Of a stretch of 64,000 bases of DNA, positions 2,171-63,986 are shown piece by piece. Location of the stretch: the NCBI RefSeq assembly GCF_050920415.1, contig NZ_CP169309.1; one strand, 5' to 3'. The first letter of the stretch is position 1; every line of letters begins with the position of its first letter. Position numbers and translations under genes: made by a program. The notes beneath the pieces are model-generated. The model had not been told where the DNA came from and did not search any database. It saw only the letters and a list, made by a program, of their open reading frames with translations. This stretch comes from Escherichia coli. Its GTDB lineage: Bacteria; Pseudomonadota; Gammaproteobacteria; Enterobacterales; Enterobacteriaceae.

Positions 2171-2638
2171 CTAGTTAATACACTGAGTGCGGATATATTC
2201 CTGCGCCCCTTCCAGCTGCTTCTGCATCATCATCAACCGCTCTCTGAGAGTGAAATAATCCCGTTCAACTGTGTCTGCCAGTCGGGGGCCGGTTGCATTA
2301 TCCACGCCGGAGGTGCCGGTGGCTTCACGCACGGTACCGGAGCAGGTGGCGTTGATCCGCAGGCGCTTACGACCAGCGGCAACATCAGCACGCAGAGTTT
2401 CATTTTCAGCTCTCGCATCGGCTAATTCCCTCGAGTATCTGGCATCAAGTGCAGCGACATCACGCTGGCGTATCTGCATATCAGTAATTGTCGCGTTCGC
2501 CAGCTCCAGCTCTCTGACTTTTTTATCGCGCTGCGCTTTGTAGGTGATGGCGTTATCGCGGTAATGATTCAGCCCCAGACCAAGCGCACCACAGGCTACC
2601 AGCAGGACAATAATCACCACACACAGAACACGGTTCAT
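2171..2638 (-). CDS. rz: Rz inner-membrane spanin (i-spanin)
   Basis: 155 aa with N-terminal TM segment and coiled-coil body ([58 protein letters not shown]); directly downstream of endolysin. Confidence 0.85.
2233..2418 (-). CDS. rz1: Rz1 outer-membrane lipoprotein spanin (o-spanin), embedded in the +1 frame of Rz
   Basis: 61 aa [61 protein letters not shown]: lipobox then proline-rich region, like lambda Rz1. Confidence 0.85.
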
Positions 2639-4102: not shown

Positions 4103-4743
4103 TTATATACGTCCTTTAAGATAAGTCAGTCCTGGATGAAACCAGTAAGCAGGCACTTTTTTAAAGGGTGGATTATCAAAATCACGAAGAAGAGCCTCCC
4201 GCACAACTGCATCCTTGTCCGCACCACTGGCCAGCGCTTCAATCTCAGCAGCTACCTGCAGATATCCCATGCAACGACCAATGCGCTTCATTAGTCCCTG
4301 CTTTTTATTGTTCTTCAGGTAATCAATGGCAAATTCAATGAGCGCCTCACTGTGCTGGTGCGATGCTGGTGTTACTTTTCCATCTTCACGGATCGTGATA
4401 TTCCAGTCATCGCTTGTCACAATAAAAGATGGCCGATTCCCCCCCCATGCCTGGTCTTTATCCGGTGCAGACGCAATAAAATAACGTTTATTGCCTTCCT
4501 CTCCGGCACTTTTAACTGTAATGGAGTACTTTTCTGACAATGCGGTCGGTAAAAACTTTTCCTGCAAAATCTTCTCAAAGGTCCTGCGAGCAATTTTGAT
4601 GCAATCATCGTAAAACGCTGCTTCCTGCTCATCGCGGCGTTTTTTTCATCTTCAGAAACCATCAGCACCGACAGTTTTTTATTCAGTTCAGTGATTTCAT
4701 TTTCCAGGCAACTTATGCGCTGATTCATTTCTTCATGGTTCAT
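4103..4743 (-). pseudogene. Hypothetical protein gene between holin and endolysin, interrupted by a frameshift (ORFs 4417-4743 and 4103-4567)
   Basis: N-terminal ORF (MNHEEMNQRISCLENEITELNKKLSVLMVSEDEK) and C-terminal ORF (...QEKFLPTALSEKYSITVKSAGEE...) join into one plausible protein if the A/T run at 4640-4646 had one more base (EDEKKRRDEQEAAFYDDCIKIARRTFEKILQEKF). Confidence 0.5.
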
Positions 4744-6582: not shown

Positions 6583-7641
6583 TCATCCGTTCTGACTGAC
6601 TAAATCCTGAACTTCCTTGACCGTCTGCTCAAAACGCTCAGTCTCCAGCTCAACGCCAATTGCACGACGTCCCAGCGCCATCGATGCTTTGACCGTCGAA
6701 CCCGACCCCATGAAAAAATCTGCAACCAGATCTCCCGGACGACTGCTTGCGCTGATTATCTGCTGCAACATTTCTGCCGGTTTTTCGCACGGATGTTTCC
6801 CGGGATAGTACTGCACCGGTTTATGCATCCACACATCGGTGTACGGCACCTGCACAGTCACACCGAAATACCGCCGCAAATTTTTATATTCTCTCAGCAG
6901 TTCCGTATACTGCCGGTTCAGTTCACTGTATGTGCTGACCAGCTGGTGGTGTGGCTGCTCCAGTTCACCGCGCTGATGTTTTTCTGCTGCAACACGCGCA
7001 AACAACGCCTGCAATTTGTTGTAATCAGCTTCGTTCGGTAACTGCCACTGACTGGTACCAAACCAGTGCGAAGCCATGTTTTTCTTTCCGGTGGCTTCCG
7101 CTATCTGTTTTGACGTTATTCCCAGTTCGGCACGAGCATCCCTGAAATACGATATCAGCGGTGCCATTATGTGCTGTTTGAGTTCCCTTTCTTTTGCCGC
7201 ATAGCCGTCACTTTTGCCGCGATATGGCCCCTGGTAATGTTCAGCAAACAGAACGCGCTCTGTGGCAGGAAAATATGCGCGCAGACTTTCTTTATTACAC
7301 CCATTCCAACGTCCGGACGGCTTCGCCCAGATGATATGGTTAAGCACGTTGAAACGTTCACGCATCATGATCTCAATATCAGATGCCAGGCGATGCCCAC
7401 AGAACAGGTAAAGGCTTCCGGCAGGTTTCAACACCCGCCAGAACTGGGCCAGACAGTGGTCCAGCCACTTAAGATAATCTTCGTCCCCTTTCCACTGATT
7501 GTCCCAACCGTTGGGTTTCACCTTGAAGTAAGGCGGATCGGTAACAATCAGGTCAATGGAATCATCAGGCAGGGACTGAATAAAATGCAGGCAATCAGCG
7601 TTGATTAAATCAACACTGTTTATTTTTACAGTATTTTTCAT
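6583..7641 (-). CDS. DNA methyltransferase (N6-adenine or N4-cytosine, DPPY motif), no adjacent restriction enzyme
   Basis: 352 aa with IVTDPPYF catalytic motif and C-terminal AdoMet motif DLVADFFMGSGST. Confidence 0.85.
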   Translation of the reverse strand: MKNTVKINSVDLINADCLHFIQSLPDDSIDLIVTDPPYFKVKPNGWDNQWKGDEDYLKWLDHCLAQFWRVLKPAGSLYLFCGHRLASDIEIMMRERFNVLNHIIWAKPSGRWNGCNKESLRAYFPATERVLFAEHYQGPYRGKSDGYAAKERELKQHIMAPLISYFRDARAELGITSKQIAEATGKKNMASHWFGTSQWQLPNEADYNKLQALFARVAAEKHQRGELEQPHHQLVSTYSELNRQYTELLREYKNLRRYFGVTVQVPYTDVWMHKPVQYYPGKHPCEKPAEMLQQIISASSRPGDLVADFFMGSGSTVKASMALGRRAIGVELETERFEQTVKEVQDLVSQNG

Positions 7642-11676: not shown

Positions 11677-12072
11677 TTACCGAGTTGCTAATTTGCAACT
11701 CGCTTTTTCGTACTTACTGATAGTGATCTCGACCTTACCTTCCGGGATAACCGGTCCCCACTCCACCAGCATTCTTTTCACCTGACTGTCGTCTTCCCAC
11801 ACCCCCGCGTGGGTCAGGGCGTCAAACAGCGCCTTGTTATAGTTGTCCAGATCGCGGATCCGGTTATCCGGAGGAAACAACACGATCTCCACTGAAGCAG
11901 GTGCCGACGTTGGTTTCGGCAGACGACGTAACTGCTCAACTATTGCTGCGCACGCCGCGCTCTGGAATTTTCGCCCCGCCGCGCTTATCAGGCTCTTACC
12001 AGCAAACGCCCCTTTGTTGGGGTGTCGCCAGTACGTGTTCACGCTGGGCGGGAAAGGCAGTATTAGCTTCAT
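11677..12072 (-). CDS. rusA: Holliday junction resolvase RusA
   Basis: 131 aa with RusA signature DxDN (RIRDLDNYNKALFDALTHAGVWEDDSQV). Confidence 0.9.
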   Translation of the reverse strand: MKLILPFPPSVNTYWRHPNKGAFAGKSLISAAGRKFQSAACAAIVEQLRRLPKPTSAPASVEIVLFPPDNRIRDLDNYNKALFDALTHAGVWEDDSQVKRMLVEWGPVIPEGKVEITISKYEKASCKLATR

Positions 12073-12395
12073 ACTTTCAGGCCCCTCTCATGTAACCAGT
12101 GGGTTGCACGCAGCCTGGCGTTTTCCTCACCGGCAAGCAGTGAGCGGATAATCCCGACCGCCTCGCTGTCGTCGTCCTTCATCGCAGTATGAAGCGTTAT
12201 CCCCCGGGCCACGCCACGCTTTATCGTGATGACGCCTTTTTTCTCCAGTGCGCGAAGATGCTCCACCGCTGCATTCACTGAACGGTATCCCAGCATGGTT
12301 GCCACCTCCTGATTGGTTGGCGGGAAGCCACGTTCTTTCTGATAAGAAATCAGCATATCCAGCACCTGCTGCTGGCATTGAGTTAACGTCGTCAT
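12069..12395 (-). CDS. LexA N-terminal-like winged-helix DNA-binding protein (no peptidase domain)
   Basis: MTTLTQCQQQVLDMLISYQKERGFPPTNQEVATMLGYRSVNAAVEHLRALEKKGVITIKRGVARGITL parallels the LexA N-terminal domain; ATG overlaps the upstream gene stop (ATGA). Confidence 0.75.
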   Translation of the reverse strand: MTTLTQCQQQVLDMLISYQKERGFPPTNQEVATMLGYRSVNAAVEHLRALEKKGVITIKRGVARGITLHTAMKDDDSEAVGIIRSLLAGEENARLRATHWLHERGLKV

Positions 12396-13044
12396 GCCGC
12401 CATCTCCCTGACCAGTTTTTCCGCCTGCTGGCGAACCTGCGCCAGAAACGCCTCACCACATGCCTCAAGTTCATCGCGCCCGATGTAGCTGATTGCCGGT
12501 CCCTTCCAGGTCTGTCGAAAACAGCAATAGCACCAGCGAAGAAAGCGCCTGTCGGCACCTGCTTCTCATCTTTCGGGATAAACCAGGCAGGCAGTTCAAA
12601 ACCAATACGCCCGCGAATAAAAGCAATATGATCTGCATCTTCCGGCCACCACACTTCGCTGGTGGCAGCTTTGATCAGGAAAACATAGCGCCCGCCTTTA
12701 TCACGCATGGCACTGGCATGTTTCATGATGTAACGCATGCCGGTGATGTATTGCCCCTCATGCTGACTGGCGCGGCTGTATGGGGGATTACCAAAGGCAG
12801 CACCTTTAAGCTCCGCAAGACGTTCTGACCAGTCATGCGCCAGCGCGTTGTCTTCCGCCGTGTAATACGCGGTACATTTGGCGTTATCACCGTCAGTAAA
12901 CAGATCCAGGACAAACGGGCCAAACAGGGTGTTAATTCCCCAGAAAATGTTACCCGGCGTGCGCCACTGATCGCCCACTTCCTTCAGTTCATGGGCTGGT
13001 TTGTTCCGCAGTTCCACCAGCGCCCGGCAATATTTATTACTCAT
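12392..13044 (-). pseudogene. Phage Dam-family N6-adenine DNA methyltransferase with a 1-nt frameshift near 12505-12522
   Basis: N-terminal frame: MSNKYCRALVEL...GAAFGNPPYS...FFAGAIAVFD. C-terminal frame: QTWKGPAISYIGRDELEACGEAFLAQVRQQAEKLVREMAA, ending in TGA overlapping the next ATG. One extra A in the A4 run (about 12518-12521) would join them. The 316-aa ORF-track read-through has an Arg-rich junk tail. Confidence 0.7.
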
Positions 13045-13532
13045 TAAGCCCCCACGTAATTCCCTGACAGATACCACTCTTCACCCGATGCAGCGCGCTT
13101 GCTACTTTTCCGTAAGCACCGCTCACGACGCGCCAGAAAATTGTTTCGTTCTGGCAGGGAGTGGCTTTCACGGAATGCCGCCATCCACACGGTTGCAGCA
13201 CGACGAAATAAGCCCCTGGACTCCAGTTCTTCCGCCTGGCGGGTCAGGCACAAAATCACCCGTGGATCGTTAGTGCCGACATAGAAATTGCGCACAGGTC
13301 TGGTTTCACGAACTGGTTGTGGTTCCGGCTCCTGCGCTCTCTCAGTCAGGCGTGGGAAATGTCTGCGTGTATCTCCTTCACAACGGTGAGCCACACGCCC
13401 ACTCTGACGTAACTTGCTTGCTGACTGCAGAACGCGCTGTCGTGAGTAACCAGCAAAAGCATCCGCAATGTCTCCGGAAGTACACCCCGGATGGGCTTCA
13501 ATGAATTTCTGAACTTCATTCAAAAGACTCAT
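13044..13532 (-). CDS. Hypothetical protein with N-terminal HTH-like region
   Basis: 162-aa ORF; stop overlaps the methyltransferase start (TAATG); no family recognised. Confidence 0.6.
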   Translation of the reverse strand: MSLLNEVQKFIEAHPGCTSGDIADAFAGYSRQRVLQSASKLRQSGRVAHRCEGDTRRHFPRLTERAQEPEPQPVRETRPVRNFYVGTNDPRVILCLTRQAEELESRGLFRRAATVWMAAFRESHSLPERNNFLARRERCLRKSSKRAASGEEWYLSGNYVGA

Positions 13533-14353
13533 AATCCCCCCCTGAATCCTGCCGGGATCTGGCTGTAGTCCACGTTGTCGTAACTGGCTTTGAAGTACGG
13601 GTCCTCGCGTCTGGCTGCAGATACCGCAGGAACTTCCCAGGATTCTTCGAAATGACGATCCGGACCAAAGAACGTGACAGCCTGTTTCACAAATTGTGTG
13701 CCGCTGTTACCCATCGCAGATACCCAGCCCGCGTAGCGTTTCACACCTTCCAGCATGGTTTCGGGGTTTACTCCCTCATTCAAACGGGCTTTCCAGGCTT
13801 TGAAGGCTGCAGATTTTGAATTGCCACCAGCACGTTTGGGATATGCCAGCCATGCCTGCTCAAACTCCGGAGAGTATTCCGGTCGGTTTGAACGAACTCG
13901 CACGGACTCATCAACTGATGCACCAACAGCTATTGGTTCATTGACTGGTTCTTTGACTGGTTCAAAAGAGTGACTGGTTCTGGGTGAATCTCCTGCACTA
14001 CCCCCTGGTGCAACTCCTGCACTACCTGGTGAATTTGCTGCACCAGATAGTGAATTATTTGCACTACCCCCTAGTGAATCTCCTGCACCATCCAGATGAA
14101 GGAGATAGATATTACTTGAGTTACCTTTTTCACCTTTCCGGGTGACTTTTTTTACCAGCCCGGACTCACAAAGGGCCGCAATATGATTCATCACAGAACG
14201 TTTGCTAATCTCGCACTGGTCAGCAATATGCTGGTAGCTGGGCCAGCACTCACCCTGATCGCTGGCATTATCAGCCAGCTTGATCAGAACCAGTTTTCGC
14301 AATGGATTACCCACTCGAATTTTCATCGCTTTAACCATCAGCTCCATACTCAT
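13529..14353 (-). CDS. Replication initiation protein (HTH N-terminal domain, internal repeats, C-terminal helicase-loader-interaction-like tail)
   Basis: 274 aa; N-terminal HTH (WPSYQHIADQCEISKRSVMNHIAALCESGLVKK), central Gly/Ser/Ala/Pro repeats encoded by iterons, C-terminus ...SQIPAGFRGGL resembling the DnaT C-terminus in this window (SQIPPGFRG). Confidence 0.7.
   Translation of the reverse strand: MSMELMVKAMKIRVGNPLRKLVLIKLADNASDQGECWPSYQHIADQCEISKRSVMNHIAALCESGLVKKVTRKGEKGNSSNIYLLHLDGAGDSLGGSANNSLSGAANSPGSAGVAPGGSAGDSPRTSHSFEPVKEPVNEPIAVGASVDESVRVRSNRPEYSPEFEQAWLAYPKRAGGNSKSAAFKAWKARLNEGVNPETMLEGVKRYAGWVSAMGNSGTQFVKQAVTFFGPDRHFEESWEVPAVSAARREDPYFKASYDNVDYSQIPAGFRGGL
13940..14100. repeat. 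Iteron-like direct repeats (candidate origin of replication) inside the replication initiator gene
   Basis: GACTGGTTC three times, then about five imperfect 18-20 bp repeats of the TCCTGCACTACC(C)CCTGGTGAA type. Confidence 0.6.
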
Positions 14354-19908: not shown

Positions 19909-20445
19909 ATGTCATTTATCAAAACTTTTTCTGGGAAGCATTTTTATTATGACAGGATAAATAAAGACGACATCGATATTAACGATATCGCGGTTTCCCT
20001 TTCAAATATCTGTCGCTTTGCCGGTCATCTTTCGCACTTCTACAGCGTCGCCCAACATGCGGTTCTTTGCAGCCAGCTGGTGCCGCAGGAATTTGCTTTT
20101 GAAGCGTTAATGCATGATGCAACAGAAGCGTATTGCCAGGACATTCCCGCACCACTGAAACGCCTTCTTCCTGACTATAAACGGATGGAAGAAAAAATAG
20201 ACGCCGTAATCCGTGAGAAATACGGGTTACCCCCGGTTATGAGTACACCCGTGAAATATGCCGATCTCATCATGCTGGCAACCGAACGCCGCGATCTCGG
20301 GCTTGATGATGGCTCTTTCTGGCCTGTACTGGAAGGCATCCCGGCAACAGAGATGTTCAACGTGATTCCACTGGCACCGGGCCATGCCTACGGGATGTTT
20401 ATGGAACGTTTTAACGATTTATCGGAGTTACGCAAATGCGCATGA
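19909..20445 (+). CDS. YfdR-like HD-domain phosphohydrolase
   Basis: 178 aa from MSFIKTFSGKHFYYDR...; HD motif region HFYSVAQHAVLCS...LMHDATEAY. Confidence 0.75.
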   Translation: MSFIKTFSGKHFYYDRINKDDIDINDIAVSLSNICRFAGHLSHFYSVAQHAVLCSQLVPQEFAFEALMHDATEAYCQDIPAPLKRLLPDYKRMEEKIDAVIREKYGLPPVMSTPVKYADLIMLATERRDLGLDDGSFWPVLEGIPATEMFNVIPLAPGHAYGMFMERFNDLSELRKCA

Positions 20446-20798
20446 ATGTTTTCGAAATGGAAGGGTTTCTTCGCGGGAAATGTGTACCGCGAGATCTGAA
20501 AGTGAACGAAACAAATGCTGAGTACCTGGTACGTAAATTCGACGCGCTTGAAGCTAAATGTGCGGCACTGGAAAACAAAATAATACCAGTGTCAACTGAA
20601 CTGCCACCAGCAAATGAAAGTGTTCTGTTATTTGATGCTAATGGAGAAGGCTGGCTGATTGGCTGGCGTTCTCTCTGGTACACCTAGGGACAAAAAGAAA
20701 CCGGAGAATGGCAGTGGACATTTCAGGTCGGGGACCTTGAAAACGTCAATATCACTCACTGGGCAGTAGTGCCAAAAGCACCGGAGGCTGGAGCATAA
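20436..20798 (+). pseudogene. YfdS-like gene interrupted by an in-frame TAG at 20685-20687
   Basis: The frame continues after the TAG as GQKETGEWQWTFQVGDLENVNITHWAVVPKAPEAGA and ends at a TAA overlapping the next ATG (TAATG at 20796-20800); total length 120 codons. Confidence 0.5.
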
Positions 20799-62819: not shown

Positions 62820-63986
62820 GTGAAAAACTACAAAGTTATTACTCCGCTTTTTCCTACCTATGCGCAAGTTAAGGCTATGATGAAAGCCGTCTCAGGCTAT
62901 TCCCTGAAAGCGGTACGCAATATGATTACCGCCATTCACGAGCAAACCGGTACGCCGCAAAAACCCGTTGACTGGTCGGAACCTGACCTGTGGATCAGCG
63001 AACGCTTAACGGGTGAAGATGCCGACATCGCCCGTCGTATTTGGGATACCGATAATCACATATTGAACCCGCGCCACAGCTACGGCTGCTACTTATTTCT
63101 CAACTATCCTCAGTTTGAGCTGATGGAAAGCACGCCAGATGATACCTGGCAGCCCACCTCGCGCGGGCAAAAATTCCTGCAAGATGACGAAAAAACGCTG
63201 CGTTCACTGGACGACCAGGAAGGCATTCTGCAACTGCTTGAGCTGCTGGCTGGCCGGGAAATGTCGCGCCGCGCCGATTTATTGCCGGAATGGCAGGCCT
63301 TTTTGCATCAGCATTCGAAATTCGCGTCAGCAAGTTCAGTGAAAAGCACGCTCTACTCCCGTCTCTATAACCTTATCGACCGTGACATGGTTAACCGTGA
63401 AGGCATGAGCTATCGCATCACCGATACCGGGCGCGCCTGGCTTGGAAAAGCGTTGCCTGCACGAAAAAGCGATCCGCGTAAAGAGCTGTTGGAAGCGGTA
63501 AAACGCTATAACGAACAGCAAAAAGAGCTGCTGCGCGAACAAATCAGCACGATGAACCCGTACAAATTTGAGCAACTGGTTGGTCAATTACTGGAAGCAA
63601 TGGGCTACGAACAGGTTGAAGTGACCAAAGCCTCAGGCGACAAAGGTGTGGACGTGATTGGTCAGGTGCAGGTCGGCATCACCACTATTACCGAAGTGGT
63701 GCAGGTCAAAAGAATGCTGAACACTATCACTCGCCCGTATATCGACCAGTTGCGTGGGGCGTTGCCTTACCACAAAGCCATTCGCGGTACGCTCATCACC
63801 ACCGGGAAATTTGCGGCGAAATGTGCAGAAGCGGCGCTCTTTCCGGGTGCCGCGCCCATTACGCTTATCGACGGCGATCGTTTACTGGAACTGTTAATCG
63901 AAAATAACGTCGGCATTCGCCGCAGCAATGCAGTGGAATTGCTGGATGTAGATTTGCAGTTGTTTGATGAGCTGGAGATGGATTAA
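62820..63986 (+). CDS. Mrr-type (type IV) restriction endonuclease-like protein with extended N-terminal domain
   Basis: 388 aa; C-terminal Mrr catalytic-like region (FEQLVGQLLEAMGYEQVEVTKASGDKGVDVIGQVQVGITTITEVVQVKR); coordinates from the ORF track. Confidence 0.6.
   Translation: MKNYKVITPLFPTYAQVKAMMKAVSGYSLKAVRNMITAIHEQTGTPQKPVDWSEPDLWISERLTGEDADIARRIWDTDNHILNPRHSYGCYLFLNYPQFELMESTPDDTWQPTSRGQKFLQDDEKTLRSLDDQEGILQLLELLAGREMSRRADLLPEWQAFLHQHSKFASASSVKSTLYSRLYNLIDRDMVNREGMSYRITDTGRAWLGKALPARKSDPRKELLEAVKRYNEQQKELLREQISTMNPYKFEQLVGQLLEAMGYEQVEVTKASGDKGVDVIGQVQVGITTITEVVQVKRMLNTITRPYIDQLRGALPYHKAIRGTLITTGKFAAKCAEAALFPGAAPITLIDGDRLLELLIENNVGIRRSNAVELLDVDLQLFDELEMD

What the first reader, a model, noticed from the sequence alone, without database searches (positions are those of the whole stretch)
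12392..13044. Dam-family methyltransferase is frameshifted at a short A/T run, and the read-through ORF creates a false 316-aa product
The N-terminal frame carries the NPPY-type catalytic region. The C-terminal frame encodes a protein-like tail ending in a TGA that overlaps the next gene's ATG. One extra A in the A4 run at about 12518-12521 would join them. The ORF-track product instead continues in the wrong frame through the LexA-like gene with an Arg-rich tail. This is either a real inactivation or a homopolymer miscall.
Basis: seen in the sequence. Interest (0 to 1): 0.4.

Follow-up and report, generated by a model that had tools for sequence, protein, structure and literature searches.

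The report
Frameshifted prophage adenine methyltransferase pseudogene
A DNA-methylating enzyme gene carried by a dormant virus in an E. coli chromosome has lost one base and is broken; the break is real and inherited, already flagged in public annotation, and is an ordinary case of prophage decay.

Summary
The frameshift is real. Gene 12392..13044 (minus strand) is a phage N-6-adenine-methyltransferase (Pfam PF05869, NCBIfam TIGR01712) whose intact form is 217 aa. The A4 run at 12518-12521 is the same length in the two intact genes aligned here. The missing base lies 5 nt away: coding-strand GAC-AAG-ACC (D177-K178-T179) has become GAC-AGA-CC, which is TT to T at 12513 on the + strand.

It is not a miscall. 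The identical 653-nt pseudogene occurs in five further public assemblies. These include STEC 7V, sequenced on 454 and published in 2012, and a contig assembled from run SRR5185396. It also occurs in RefSeq genome MFDS1022581, where PGAP already labels the gene "frameshifted". Of 1,724 E. coli records carrying this site, one has the deletion.

The mutation replaces the last 40 residues with 128 out-of-frame residues (17% Arg) that run 265 nt into the LexA-like gene. The lost part holds a conserved beta-strand and the C-terminal helix, so loss of function is likely but untested. The false 305-aa product is deposited in GenBank, and in other assemblies it displaces the call of the LexA-like gene. 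GATC specificity is unproven. This is ordinary prophage decay and of low interest.

The parts
12392..13044 (-). Frameshifted pseudogene of a phage N-6-adenine-methyltransferase. The intact form is 654 nt and 217 aa.
   Evidence: Restored protein: Pfam PF05869 E=1.6e-44 and TIGR01712 equivalog 251.7 bits against a cutoff of 97. PGAP annotates the same coordinates as 'frameshifted' in NZ_CP169399.1.
12513..12513 (-). Site of the 1-nt deletion. The single T (+ strand) is left from an ancestral TT. On the coding strand, codon 178 AAG has become AG.
   Evidence: Alignment A1 with the FDAARGOS_1295 and STEC309 genes, which are in frame at this site. The exact 61-mer with the deletion occurs in 1 of 1,724 matching E. 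coli records.
12514..13044 (-). Native frame, codons 1-177. It contains the DxWxTP motif (residues 25-30), D47/F49/D51, and the NPPY catalytic motif (86-89).
   Evidence: Translation. Invariant columns in the 25-sequence alignment A2.
12392..12511 (-). Original C-terminal frame, now unreachable: T179 to A217 plus a TGA that overlaps the next gene's ATG.
   Evidence: Translation. Identical to the C-terminus of intact 217-aa homologues P0003 and P0037. L193 is nearly invariant and G197 invariant. The AF2 model places strand 185-189 and helix 190-216 here at pLDDT of about 94-97.
12127..12391 (-). Spurious out-of-frame extension of the broken ORF across the LexA-like gene, ending at TGA 12129..12127.
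   Evidence: ORF list. Together with 12392-12513 it gives a 128-aa tail with 17% Arg.
13045..13077 (-). Spurious 11-codon N-terminal extension from a GTG inside the PerC-like gene. It belongs only to the mechanical 316-aa ORF.
   Evidence: Homologues start at MSNKYC. The 316-aa product is not on record and the 305-aa product is.
12069..12395 (-). Downstream gene for a 108-aa protein made only of a LexA DNA-binding domain. It is overlapped out of frame by the broken ORF.
   Evidence: PF01726 E=2.9e-19 over residues 1-65. It scores below the TIGR00498 cutoff, 70.6 against 110.95, and covers profile positions 1-91 of 203. A GGAG lies 8 nt upstream of its ATG (read).
13044..13532 (-). Upstream PerC-family gene (yfdN-like). 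Its TAA overlaps the methyltransferase ATG as TAATG.
   Evidence: PF06069 E=1.4e-07. PGAP annotation.
11677..12072 (-). RusA Holliday-junction resolvase gene, the last member of the overlapping gene string.
   Evidence: PF05866 E=6.4e-15.

Best explanation
This is a genuine, inherited single-base deletion in the N6-adenine methyltransferase gene of a lambdoid prophage. The gene sits in the early-gene string between the replication genes and the Q antiterminator, in the order HTH/DnaD-like, PerC-like, methyltransferase, LexA-DNA-binding-domain protein, RusA. The prophage is integrated next to yjjG.

The deletion removes one A from codon 178 (AAG). Translation from the normal ATG therefore yields 177 native residues followed by 128 out-of-frame residues, and it stops inside the LexA-like gene.

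The native last 40 residues are lost. They are predicted to form the last beta-strand of the methyltransferase sheet and a long C-terminal helix, and they include conserved positions. The enzyme is therefore most likely inactive, so the gene is a pseudogene.

Shown: the lesion, its position, its inheritance, and the conservation and predicted structure of the lost part. Inferred: loss of activity, and any effect on translation of the LexA-like gene. That gene has lost its termination-reinitiation coupling but keeps its own GGAG ribosome-binding site.
For: Lesion:
- The alignment with intact genes puts one gap at GAC-AAG-ACC.
- Only 1 of 1,724 E. coli records with this site carries the deletion allele. 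All 39 other listed rows span 62 nt against the 61-nt query.
- All close homologous proteins read AVFDK(T/S)WKGPA(I/M)SY.

Heritability:
- The exact 305-aa product is on 11 public contigs.
- The exact 653-nt pseudogene is present in loci from GCA_001650555.1, GCA_000194175.2, GCA_000190955.1, GCA_000194575.2 and run SRR5185396. Their 5-6 kb flanks are 99.95-100% identical to the window.
- AEXD (GCA_000194575.2) is STEC 7V from cattle feces, sequenced on 454 Titanium (PMC3491183).
- GenBank proteins EGB60845.1, EGE62037.1 and EIG79722.1 carry this sequence. The source names given are E. coli M863 and E. coli 1.2741.
- RefSeq MFDS1022581 (Korea) has it, flagged 'frameshifted'.
- The window is a further, non-identical sequence: it differs from MFDS1022581 by 6 SNPs and 2 indels over 64 kb.

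Loss of a conserved part:
- F176 and L193 are nearly invariant and G197 is invariant across homologues of 32-99% identity.
- The HMM match is shortened from profile 3-167 to 3-152 of 169 and from 1-165 to 1-155 of 165.
- The AF2 model (pLDDT 93.8) has strand 185-189 and helix 190-216 at high confidence.

Pattern of decay:
- The same prophage holds a second 1-nt-deletion pseudogene at 4103-4743, a gene with an internal stop, and partial genes. The 40 kb of chromosomal genes in the window have no frameshift.
- K-12 YfdM is an 89-residue remnant of the same gene at 97% identity.
Against: - No reads were seen, so the argument against a miscall rests on recurrence across assemblies, not on pileups.
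- Loss of enzymatic activity is inferred, not measured. All invariant N-terminal and catalytic residues (D25, W27, T29, D47, N86-S90, G145, R146, P152) are retained.
- A preprint reports a phenotype for the much shorter K-12 fragment YfdM (10.1101/413146). A truncated product therefore cannot be assumed to be inert.
Confidence: 0.9

Rival explanations
1. Sequencing or assembly miscall: the gene is intact in the organism and one base was dropped by the basecaller or polisher.
For: - The window and its closest RefSeq relative differ by two indels of the kind long-read assemblies produce. One is T6 against T5 at 2519-2524. The other is a missing C inside a GATC at 1523.
- The deletion lies 3 nt upstream of a CCTGG site, which is the Dcm recognition sequence (read).
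- Five STEC genomes listed from China carry a 751-nt copy of the region. In the one examined, STEC309, the frameshift is a different one, in an A5 run of the same gene. That could be a platform error.
Against: - The identical allele is present in assemblies from at least three kinds of source. These are a 454 Titanium draft published in 2012, other NCBI draft assemblies together with an assembly of public run SRR5185396, and a recent complete genome. All contain the exact 653-nt sequence.
- The lesion is in a dinucleotide, not a homopolymer.
- 1,716 other records with the same local context, CCTGG included, fall in the one-gap identity band and do not show the deletion.
Confidence: 0.03
2. The broken gene still yields a working or newly functional protein. 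This could happen because the C-terminus is dispensable. It could happen through rare -1 slippage of tRNA-Phe on the T4 run (GTT-TTC to TTT), which would re-enter the native frame as ...AVFRQTWKG.... Or the 305-aa product could have another role.
For: - All catalytic and invariant N-terminal residues are retained.
- The frameshifted product still scores 227 bits on TIGR01712.
- The allele was present in a strain described by 2003 and in a recently deposited genome, on similar flanks.
- A phenotype has been reported for the 91-aa K-12 fragment YfdM.
Against: - The lost segment includes conserved residues L193 and G197, and a confidently predicted strand and helix.
- By inspection there is no canonical X-XXY-YYZ slippery heptamer.
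- The out-of-frame tail is simply the LexA-like gene read in another frame.
- Persistence in a lineage is what one expects of a neutral pseudogene in a resident prophage.
Confidence: 0.06
3. Programmed ribosomal frameshift: the two-frame layout is the normal way this gene is expressed.
For: The two frames overlap cleanly and a T4 run lies just upstream of the junction.
Against: - The two-frame layout is not conserved. 1,716 of the 1,717 records that match the 61-nt test sequence over most of its length lack the deletion, and both that were aligned have the extra base.
- The largest homologue clusters are 217 aa.
- More distant homologues in other genera also keep one frame through this point.
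Confidence: 0.01

Closest known systems
Phage N-6-adenine-methyltransferase, 217-aa form (NCBIfam TIGR01712, Pfam PF05869). Examples: WP_001522181.1 in E. coli FDAARGOS_1295, and the 'dam' genes of Shigella phage SfII, phage cdtI and Stx2a/Stx2c-converting phages.
   Same: - 98-99% identical over residues 1-177.
- Same neighbours: PerC/YfdN upstream, then LexA-DNA-binding-domain protein and RusA downstream.
- Same overlapping start and stop codons.
   Different: The window's copy lacks one A in codon 178, so it loses residues 178-217 and gains a 128-aa out-of-frame tail. It also has G31 where all close homologues read have D31.
The same pseudogene allele in E. coli MFDS1022581 (RefSeq locus ACE00D_RS21960, 'frameshifted') and in the draft genomes of STEC 7V and others, including strains named M863 and 1.2741.
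   Same: Identical 653-nt sequence, and 5-6 kb flanks 99.95-100% identical.
   Different: None at the locus. Elsewhere the window differs from MFDS1022581 by 6 SNPs and 2 indels. In the older GenBank records the product was deposited as a 305-aa protein rather than flagged as a pseudogene.
E. coli K-12 YfdM (b2356, cryptic prophage CPS-53)
   Same: It is the same gene next to yfdN, and a decayed copy in a resident prophage. It is 97% identical over residues 1-89.
   Different: YfdM is cut off just after NPPY by a deletion or rearrangement, giving 91 aa. The window's copy is a point frameshift at codon 178.
Phage T1 DNA methyltransferase (gp20). From my own knowledge of the older literature, not checked here, this is the GATC-specific 'T1 Dam'.
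   Same: Same Pfam family: PF05869, E=1.7e-70.
   Different: Only 24% identity over 138 residues, so its specificity cannot be transferred to the window's protein.
Other prophage methyltransferases of Shiga-toxin phages: M.EcoGV and M.EcoPA8orf6770P (MT-A70 type). The second acts on 16S rRNA together with the protein PNB-2.
   Same: They are prophage-encoded orphan adenine methyltransferases annotated as Dam-like (PMC6602927, PMC10810198).
   Different: They belong to a different family, have a DPPW active site and sit at a different place in the phage. The window's protein has NPPY and hits only PF05869.

Membership tests
Phage N-6-adenine-methyltransferase (Pfam PF05869 / NCBIfam TIGR01712) | HMM score above the curated cutoff | tested here: met
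   Restored protein: 152 bits against a cutoff of 28.1 and 251.7 against 97.05. The frameshifted 305-aa product still passes, at 142.3 and 227.4 bits.
Phage N-6-adenine-methyltransferase (Pfam PF05869 / NCBIfam TIGR01712) | (N/D)PPY catalytic motif of amino-methyltransferases | tested here: met
   N86-P87-P88-Y89. P87, P88, Y89 and S90 are invariant and N86 nearly invariant in alignment A2.
Phage N-6-adenine-methyltransferase (Pfam PF05869 / NCBIfam TIGR01712) | Complete domain, matching the profile end to end | tested here: not met
   The window's allele matches profile 3-152 of 169 and 1-155 of 165. The restored sequence matches 3-167 and 1-165.
   No methylation data. No experimental paper on a close homologue was found. 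T1 gp20 is in the family but only 24% identical.
Canonical Dam (E. coli Dam / T4 Dam, Pfam PF02086 MethyltransfD12) | Match to the D12-class N6-adenine methyltransferase domain | tested here: not met
   The Pfam scan at E<=0.001 returned only PF05869. No PDB chain matched at E<0.69 by sequence.
MT-A70 prophage methyltransferases (M.EcoGV, M.EcoPA8orf6770P) | DPPW active site and MT-A70 domain | tested here: not met
   The motif is NPPY and there is no MT-A70 Pfam hit. The family description comes from PMC10810198.
Frameshift pseudogene | An indel relative to intact orthologues that breaks a single conserved ORF | tested here: met
   One-base gap in alignment A1. 1 of 1,724 records carries it.
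Frameshift pseudogene | The lesion is in the DNA of the organism and heritable, not an assembly artefact | tested here: met
   The exact allele is present in five further assemblies and one RefSeq genome from different isolates and platforms. Reads were not inspected.
Programmed ribosomal frameshift gene | Two-frame layout conserved among homologues | tested here: not met
   Homologues are single ORFs through this point.

The most novel reading that the evidence does not exclude
The inactivation was selected rather than neutral. This host lineage carries an Mrr-family restriction endonuclease in its immigration-control region, at window 62820-63986 and about 50 kb from the prophage. An active prophage adenine methyltransferase with non-Dam specificity would have been toxic there, so the frameshift let the prophage persist. 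A variant of this reading is that the 305-aa product, or the way its ORF covers the start of the LexA-like gene, changes expression of the LexA-like and RusA genes and so changes prophage behaviour.
Probability: 0.04. Interest if true: 0.45.

Novelty: already known. Interest (0 to 1): 0.08.

Why it matters
It matters little biologically. One more prophage accessory gene has decayed in a lineage of E. coli, and a second, intact methyltransferase gene of another family (6583-7641, PF01555) remains in the same prophage.

There are two practical points. First, simple ORF callers turn this lesion into a 305- or 316-aa "methyltransferase", which is already deposited in GenBank under three accessions. 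In those assemblies the real LexA-like gene is then not called. Second, the case shows that a plausible repair site chosen by eye, the nearest homopolymer, can restore the frame and still be wrong. Comparison with intact homologues is needed to place the lesion.

Tried and rejected
- M.EcoGIX as a relative: rejected. It is plasmid-borne and unrelated.
- M.EcoGV, M.EcoVT2Dam and the rRNA methyltransferase of phage PA8 as the same gene: rejected for M.EcoGV and PA8, which are MT-A70 enzymes with DPPW at the left end of Stx phages. M.EcoVT2Dam's family was not determined.
- The ST131 methylome paper: its prophage 'Dam homolog' M.EcoMIV belongs to PF02086, not this family.
- Sequence search of the PDB: nothing.
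- Foldseek against the PDB: only remote hits to the N6-adenine RNA methyltransferase PCIF1/CAPAM, E=3e-4 and TM about 0.45-0.5. These support the methyltransferase fold but not a specific family.
- Exact look-up of the 316-aa GTG-start product: not on record.
- The second copy of the gene in MFDS1022581: the searches report two places in that record, but the tools list only the best place per record, so I could not locate it. I therefore could not test whether the same sequence context is read correctly elsewhere in that assembly.
- Literature search by accession number identified only AEXD as strain 7V. The M863 and 1.2741 names come from the protein records.
- I did not examine whether all carriers have the prophage at the same chromosomal site.

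Full report
WHAT IS IN THE SEQUENCE

All genes around the finding lie on the minus strand. They form a string with overlapping start and stop codons:
- an HTH/DnaD-like gene (13529-14353)
- a PerC-family gene (13044-13532)
- the methyltransferase gene (12392-13044)
- a 108-aa gene that encodes only a LexA DNA-binding domain (12069-12395)
- rusA (11677-12072)

Translation from ATG 13044 gives 177 residues of a methyltransferase with NPPY at residues 86-89. It then continues as RPGRDRQSATSG.... Another frame reads ...QTWKGPAISYIGRDELEACGEAFLAQVRQQAEKLVREMAA and stops at TGA 12394..12392, which overlaps the ATG of the LexA-like gene as ATGA.

The mechanical ORF is 12127..13077 and 316 aa. It begins at a GTG inside the PerC-like gene and ends at a TGA inside the LexA-like gene. 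Its out-of-frame tail is 128 aa with 22 arginines.

WHERE THE LESION REALLY IS

A megablast of the region against complete E. coli genomes found matches in 2,645 of 5,426 genomes, 1,717 of them covering at least 80% of the query. One record, strain MFDS1022581, matched at 100% over 751 nt. Most others spanned 752 nt.

I aligned the gene with the intact 654-nt gene of FDAARGOS_1295 and with the gene of STEC309, which is in frame at this site. The alignment shows a single gap. Those two genes have GTTTTCGACAAGACCTGG and the window has GTTTTCGAC-AGACCTGG. The missing base is one A of codon 178 (AAG), corresponding to + strand TT becoming T at 12513.

Every close homologous protein I read has AVFDK(T/S)WKG.

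A 61-nt query centred on the site matched exactly in only 1 of 1,724 records. Another 1,716 fell in the band expected for a single gap, and all 39 of those listed spanned 62 nt.

REAL MUTATION OR MISCALL

The window is not the same sequence as MFDS1022581. Over 64 kb it differs by six substitutions and two indels.

The exact 305-aa product of the broken gene, from ATG 13044 to TGA 12127, is on record on 11 public contigs. All five loci returned contain the exact 653-nt pseudogene, with flanks 99.95-100% identical to the window over 5-6 kb. The five loci come from GCA_001650555.1, GCA_000194175.2, GCA_000190955.1, GCA_000194575.2 and an assembly of run SRR5185396.

GCA_000194575.2 (AEXD) is STEC strain 7V, O2:H25, from cattle feces. 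It was sequenced on 454 Titanium and sits on a deep "cryptic lineage" branch (PMC3491183). The product is also deposited as GenBank EGB60845.1, EGE62037.1 and EIG79722.1, with source names E. coli M863 and E. coli 1.2741.

The same single-base deletion, in a dinucleotide rather than a homopolymer, thus appears in several isolates from different laboratories, platforms and years. That is inheritance, not basecalling error. I did not see reads, so this is strong indirect evidence rather than direct proof.

The assemblies do show small indel differences of the error-prone kind elsewhere. One is T6 against T5 at 2519-2524, which makes the Rz gene intact in the window but "frameshifted" in the RefSeq record. 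The other is a missing C in a GATC at 1523.

WHAT THE GENE IS

The restored 217-aa protein matches Pfam PF05869 ("Dam", E=1.6e-44) and the NCBIfam equivalog TIGR01712, phage N-6-adenine-methyltransferase, at 251.7 bits against a cutoff of 97. It gives no hit to the E. coli Dam family and has no sequence relative in the PDB.

The 217-aa form is by far the commonest among close homologues; the largest cluster has 3,007 members. The family is widespread in phages of enterobacteria and beyond, with 529 phage records matching.

Phage T1's methyltransferase is in the same Pfam family but is only 24% identical. From my own knowledge of the older literature, T1 Dam is GATC-specific; I did not verify this here. 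GATC specificity for the window's protein is therefore an assumption, not a finding.

The other prophage "Dam homologues" discussed in the STEC literature, M.EcoGV and M.EcoPA8orf6770P, are MT-A70 enzymes with a DPPW site at a different place in the phage. They are not this gene.

WHAT THE FRAMESHIFT DOES

An alignment of 25 homologues of 32-99% identity shows that conservation continues past the break. F176 and L193 are nearly invariant and G197 is invariant. The profile matches are cut from 3-167 to 3-152 of 169 (Pfam) and from 1-165 to 1-155 of 165 (NCBIfam).

An AlphaFold2 model of the restored protein is confident, with mean pLDDT 93.8 and pTM 0.89. It has a strand at 168-176, a strand at 185-189 and a helix at 190-216, all at pLDDT of about 94-98 except for the final few residues. 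The mutation therefore removes the last strand and the C-terminal helix and adds 128 unrelated residues. I infer loss of function. This was not measured, and all invariant catalytic-side residues are retained.

The nearest solved folds are remote N6-adenine methyltransferases (PCIF1/CAPAM, E=3e-4), which supports only the general fold.

The broken ORF no longer stops at the ATGA junction. It runs 265 nt into the LexA-like gene in another frame. That gene keeps its own GGAG 8 nt upstream of the ATG (read). Any change in its translation is therefore uncertain and remains inference.

In the public assemblies whose gene calls I saw, the 305-aa ORF was called and the LexA-like gene was not. This is a real annotation artefact.

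CONTEXT AND COMPARISON

PGAP already annotates the locus as "phage N-6-adenine-methyltransferase, frameshifted" in RefSeq.

The prophage part of the window, about 1-24.5 kb, also has a second 1-nt-deletion pseudogene at 4103-4743, a gene with an internal stop at 20436-20798, and partial genes. The 40 kb of chromosomal genes have no frameshift. This is the pattern of a decaying resident prophage.

Decay of this particular gene is seen elsewhere. K-12's YfdM is the first 89 residues of the same gene at 97% identity. The STEC309 genome carries an independent frameshift in an A5 run near the 3' end, and four further STEC genomes listed from China have a copy of the same 751-nt length. Many singleton "fusion" proteins with the PerC, LexA or RusA neighbours exist in the protein collection.

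A preprint reports a phage-propagation phenotype for the K-12 fragment (10.1101/413146). This is a caution against assuming that fragments are inert, but it gives no evidence of methylase activity.

VERDICT

The interpretation "real inactivation" is supported and "homopolymer miscall" is rejected. The feature is an ordinary pseudogene, already annotated, in a decaying prophage.

Noticed in passing
window 1-64000, compared with NZ_CP169399.1 4451832-4515831: The window is nearly but not exactly E. coli MFDS1022581. There are 6 substitutions (17339, 24534, 38830, 42788, 49291, 56363) and 2 compensating indels. No RefSeq complete E. coli genome in the collection is identical at the test site, so the source is another isolate or assembly of the same lineage.
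   Followed up: partly
window 2171-2638 (-), T run at 2519-2524: The Rz spanin ('lysis protein') gene is intact in the window (155 aa, T6 run). It is annotated 'frameshifted' in MFDS1022581, which has T5. This is a homopolymer length difference that could be an assembly error in one of the two. An Rz1-like lipoprotein ORF (2233-2418, 61 aa) is embedded in another frame and does not appear in the RefSeq feature list.
   Followed up: partly
window 1523: The window reads GAGATGGG where MFDS1022581 reads GAGATCGGG, so a C inside a GATC site is missing. No gene is annotated in this stretch. It may be a methylation-related basecalling difference.
   Followed up: no
window 4103-4743 (-): A second frameshifted gene in the same prophage, of unknown function and next to the holin gene. 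It is split into ORFs of 154 and 108 aa. The other E. coli genomes listed have one more base over the 751-nt stretch. No Pfam hit.
   Followed up: partly
window 6583-7641 (-): A second, intact DNA methyltransferase gene in the same prophage: 352 aa, PF01555 N6_N4_Mtase, E=1.3e-43. It lies next to three phage tRNA genes and downstream of the Q antiterminator gene. The prophage therefore keeps one methyltransferase although the PF05869 one is broken.
   Followed up: partly
window 12069-12395 (-): The 'LexA repressor' of the annotation is only 108 aa. It has the LexA DNA-binding domain but no peptidase domain, and it scores below the LexA equivalog cutoff (70.6 against 110.95 bits). The name overstates what it is. 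Its role in these phages is not known to me.
   Followed up: partly
window 62820-63986 (+): A 388-aa protein with a C-terminal Mrr_cat restriction-endonuclease domain (E=1.9e-28) and an unassigned N-terminal 240 residues. It lies beside a BrnA antitoxin gene and a truncated BrnT toxin gene, just past yjiA. From my own recollection of the K-12 gene order, this is where the immigration-control region lies.
   Followed up: partly
L003 (NZ_CP041435.1, STEC309), gene columns 624-626 of alignment A1: STEC309 carries a different frameshift in the same gene, A5 to A4 near the 3' end, also flagged by PGAP. STEC313, 316, 367 and 409, also listed from China, have a copy of the region of the same 751-nt length but were not examined. 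Whether this is shared descent or a platform error was not examined.
   Followed up: no
proteins P0046, P0045, P0038: More than a thousand deposited 'partial' copies of this methyltransferase end at residue 182-183 (...FDKTWKG). One protein switches there to an antiterminator-Q-like sequence. That point looks like a mosaic junction between prophage modules, where short-read contigs break. It lies only about 5 codons from the window's deletion.
   Followed up: no
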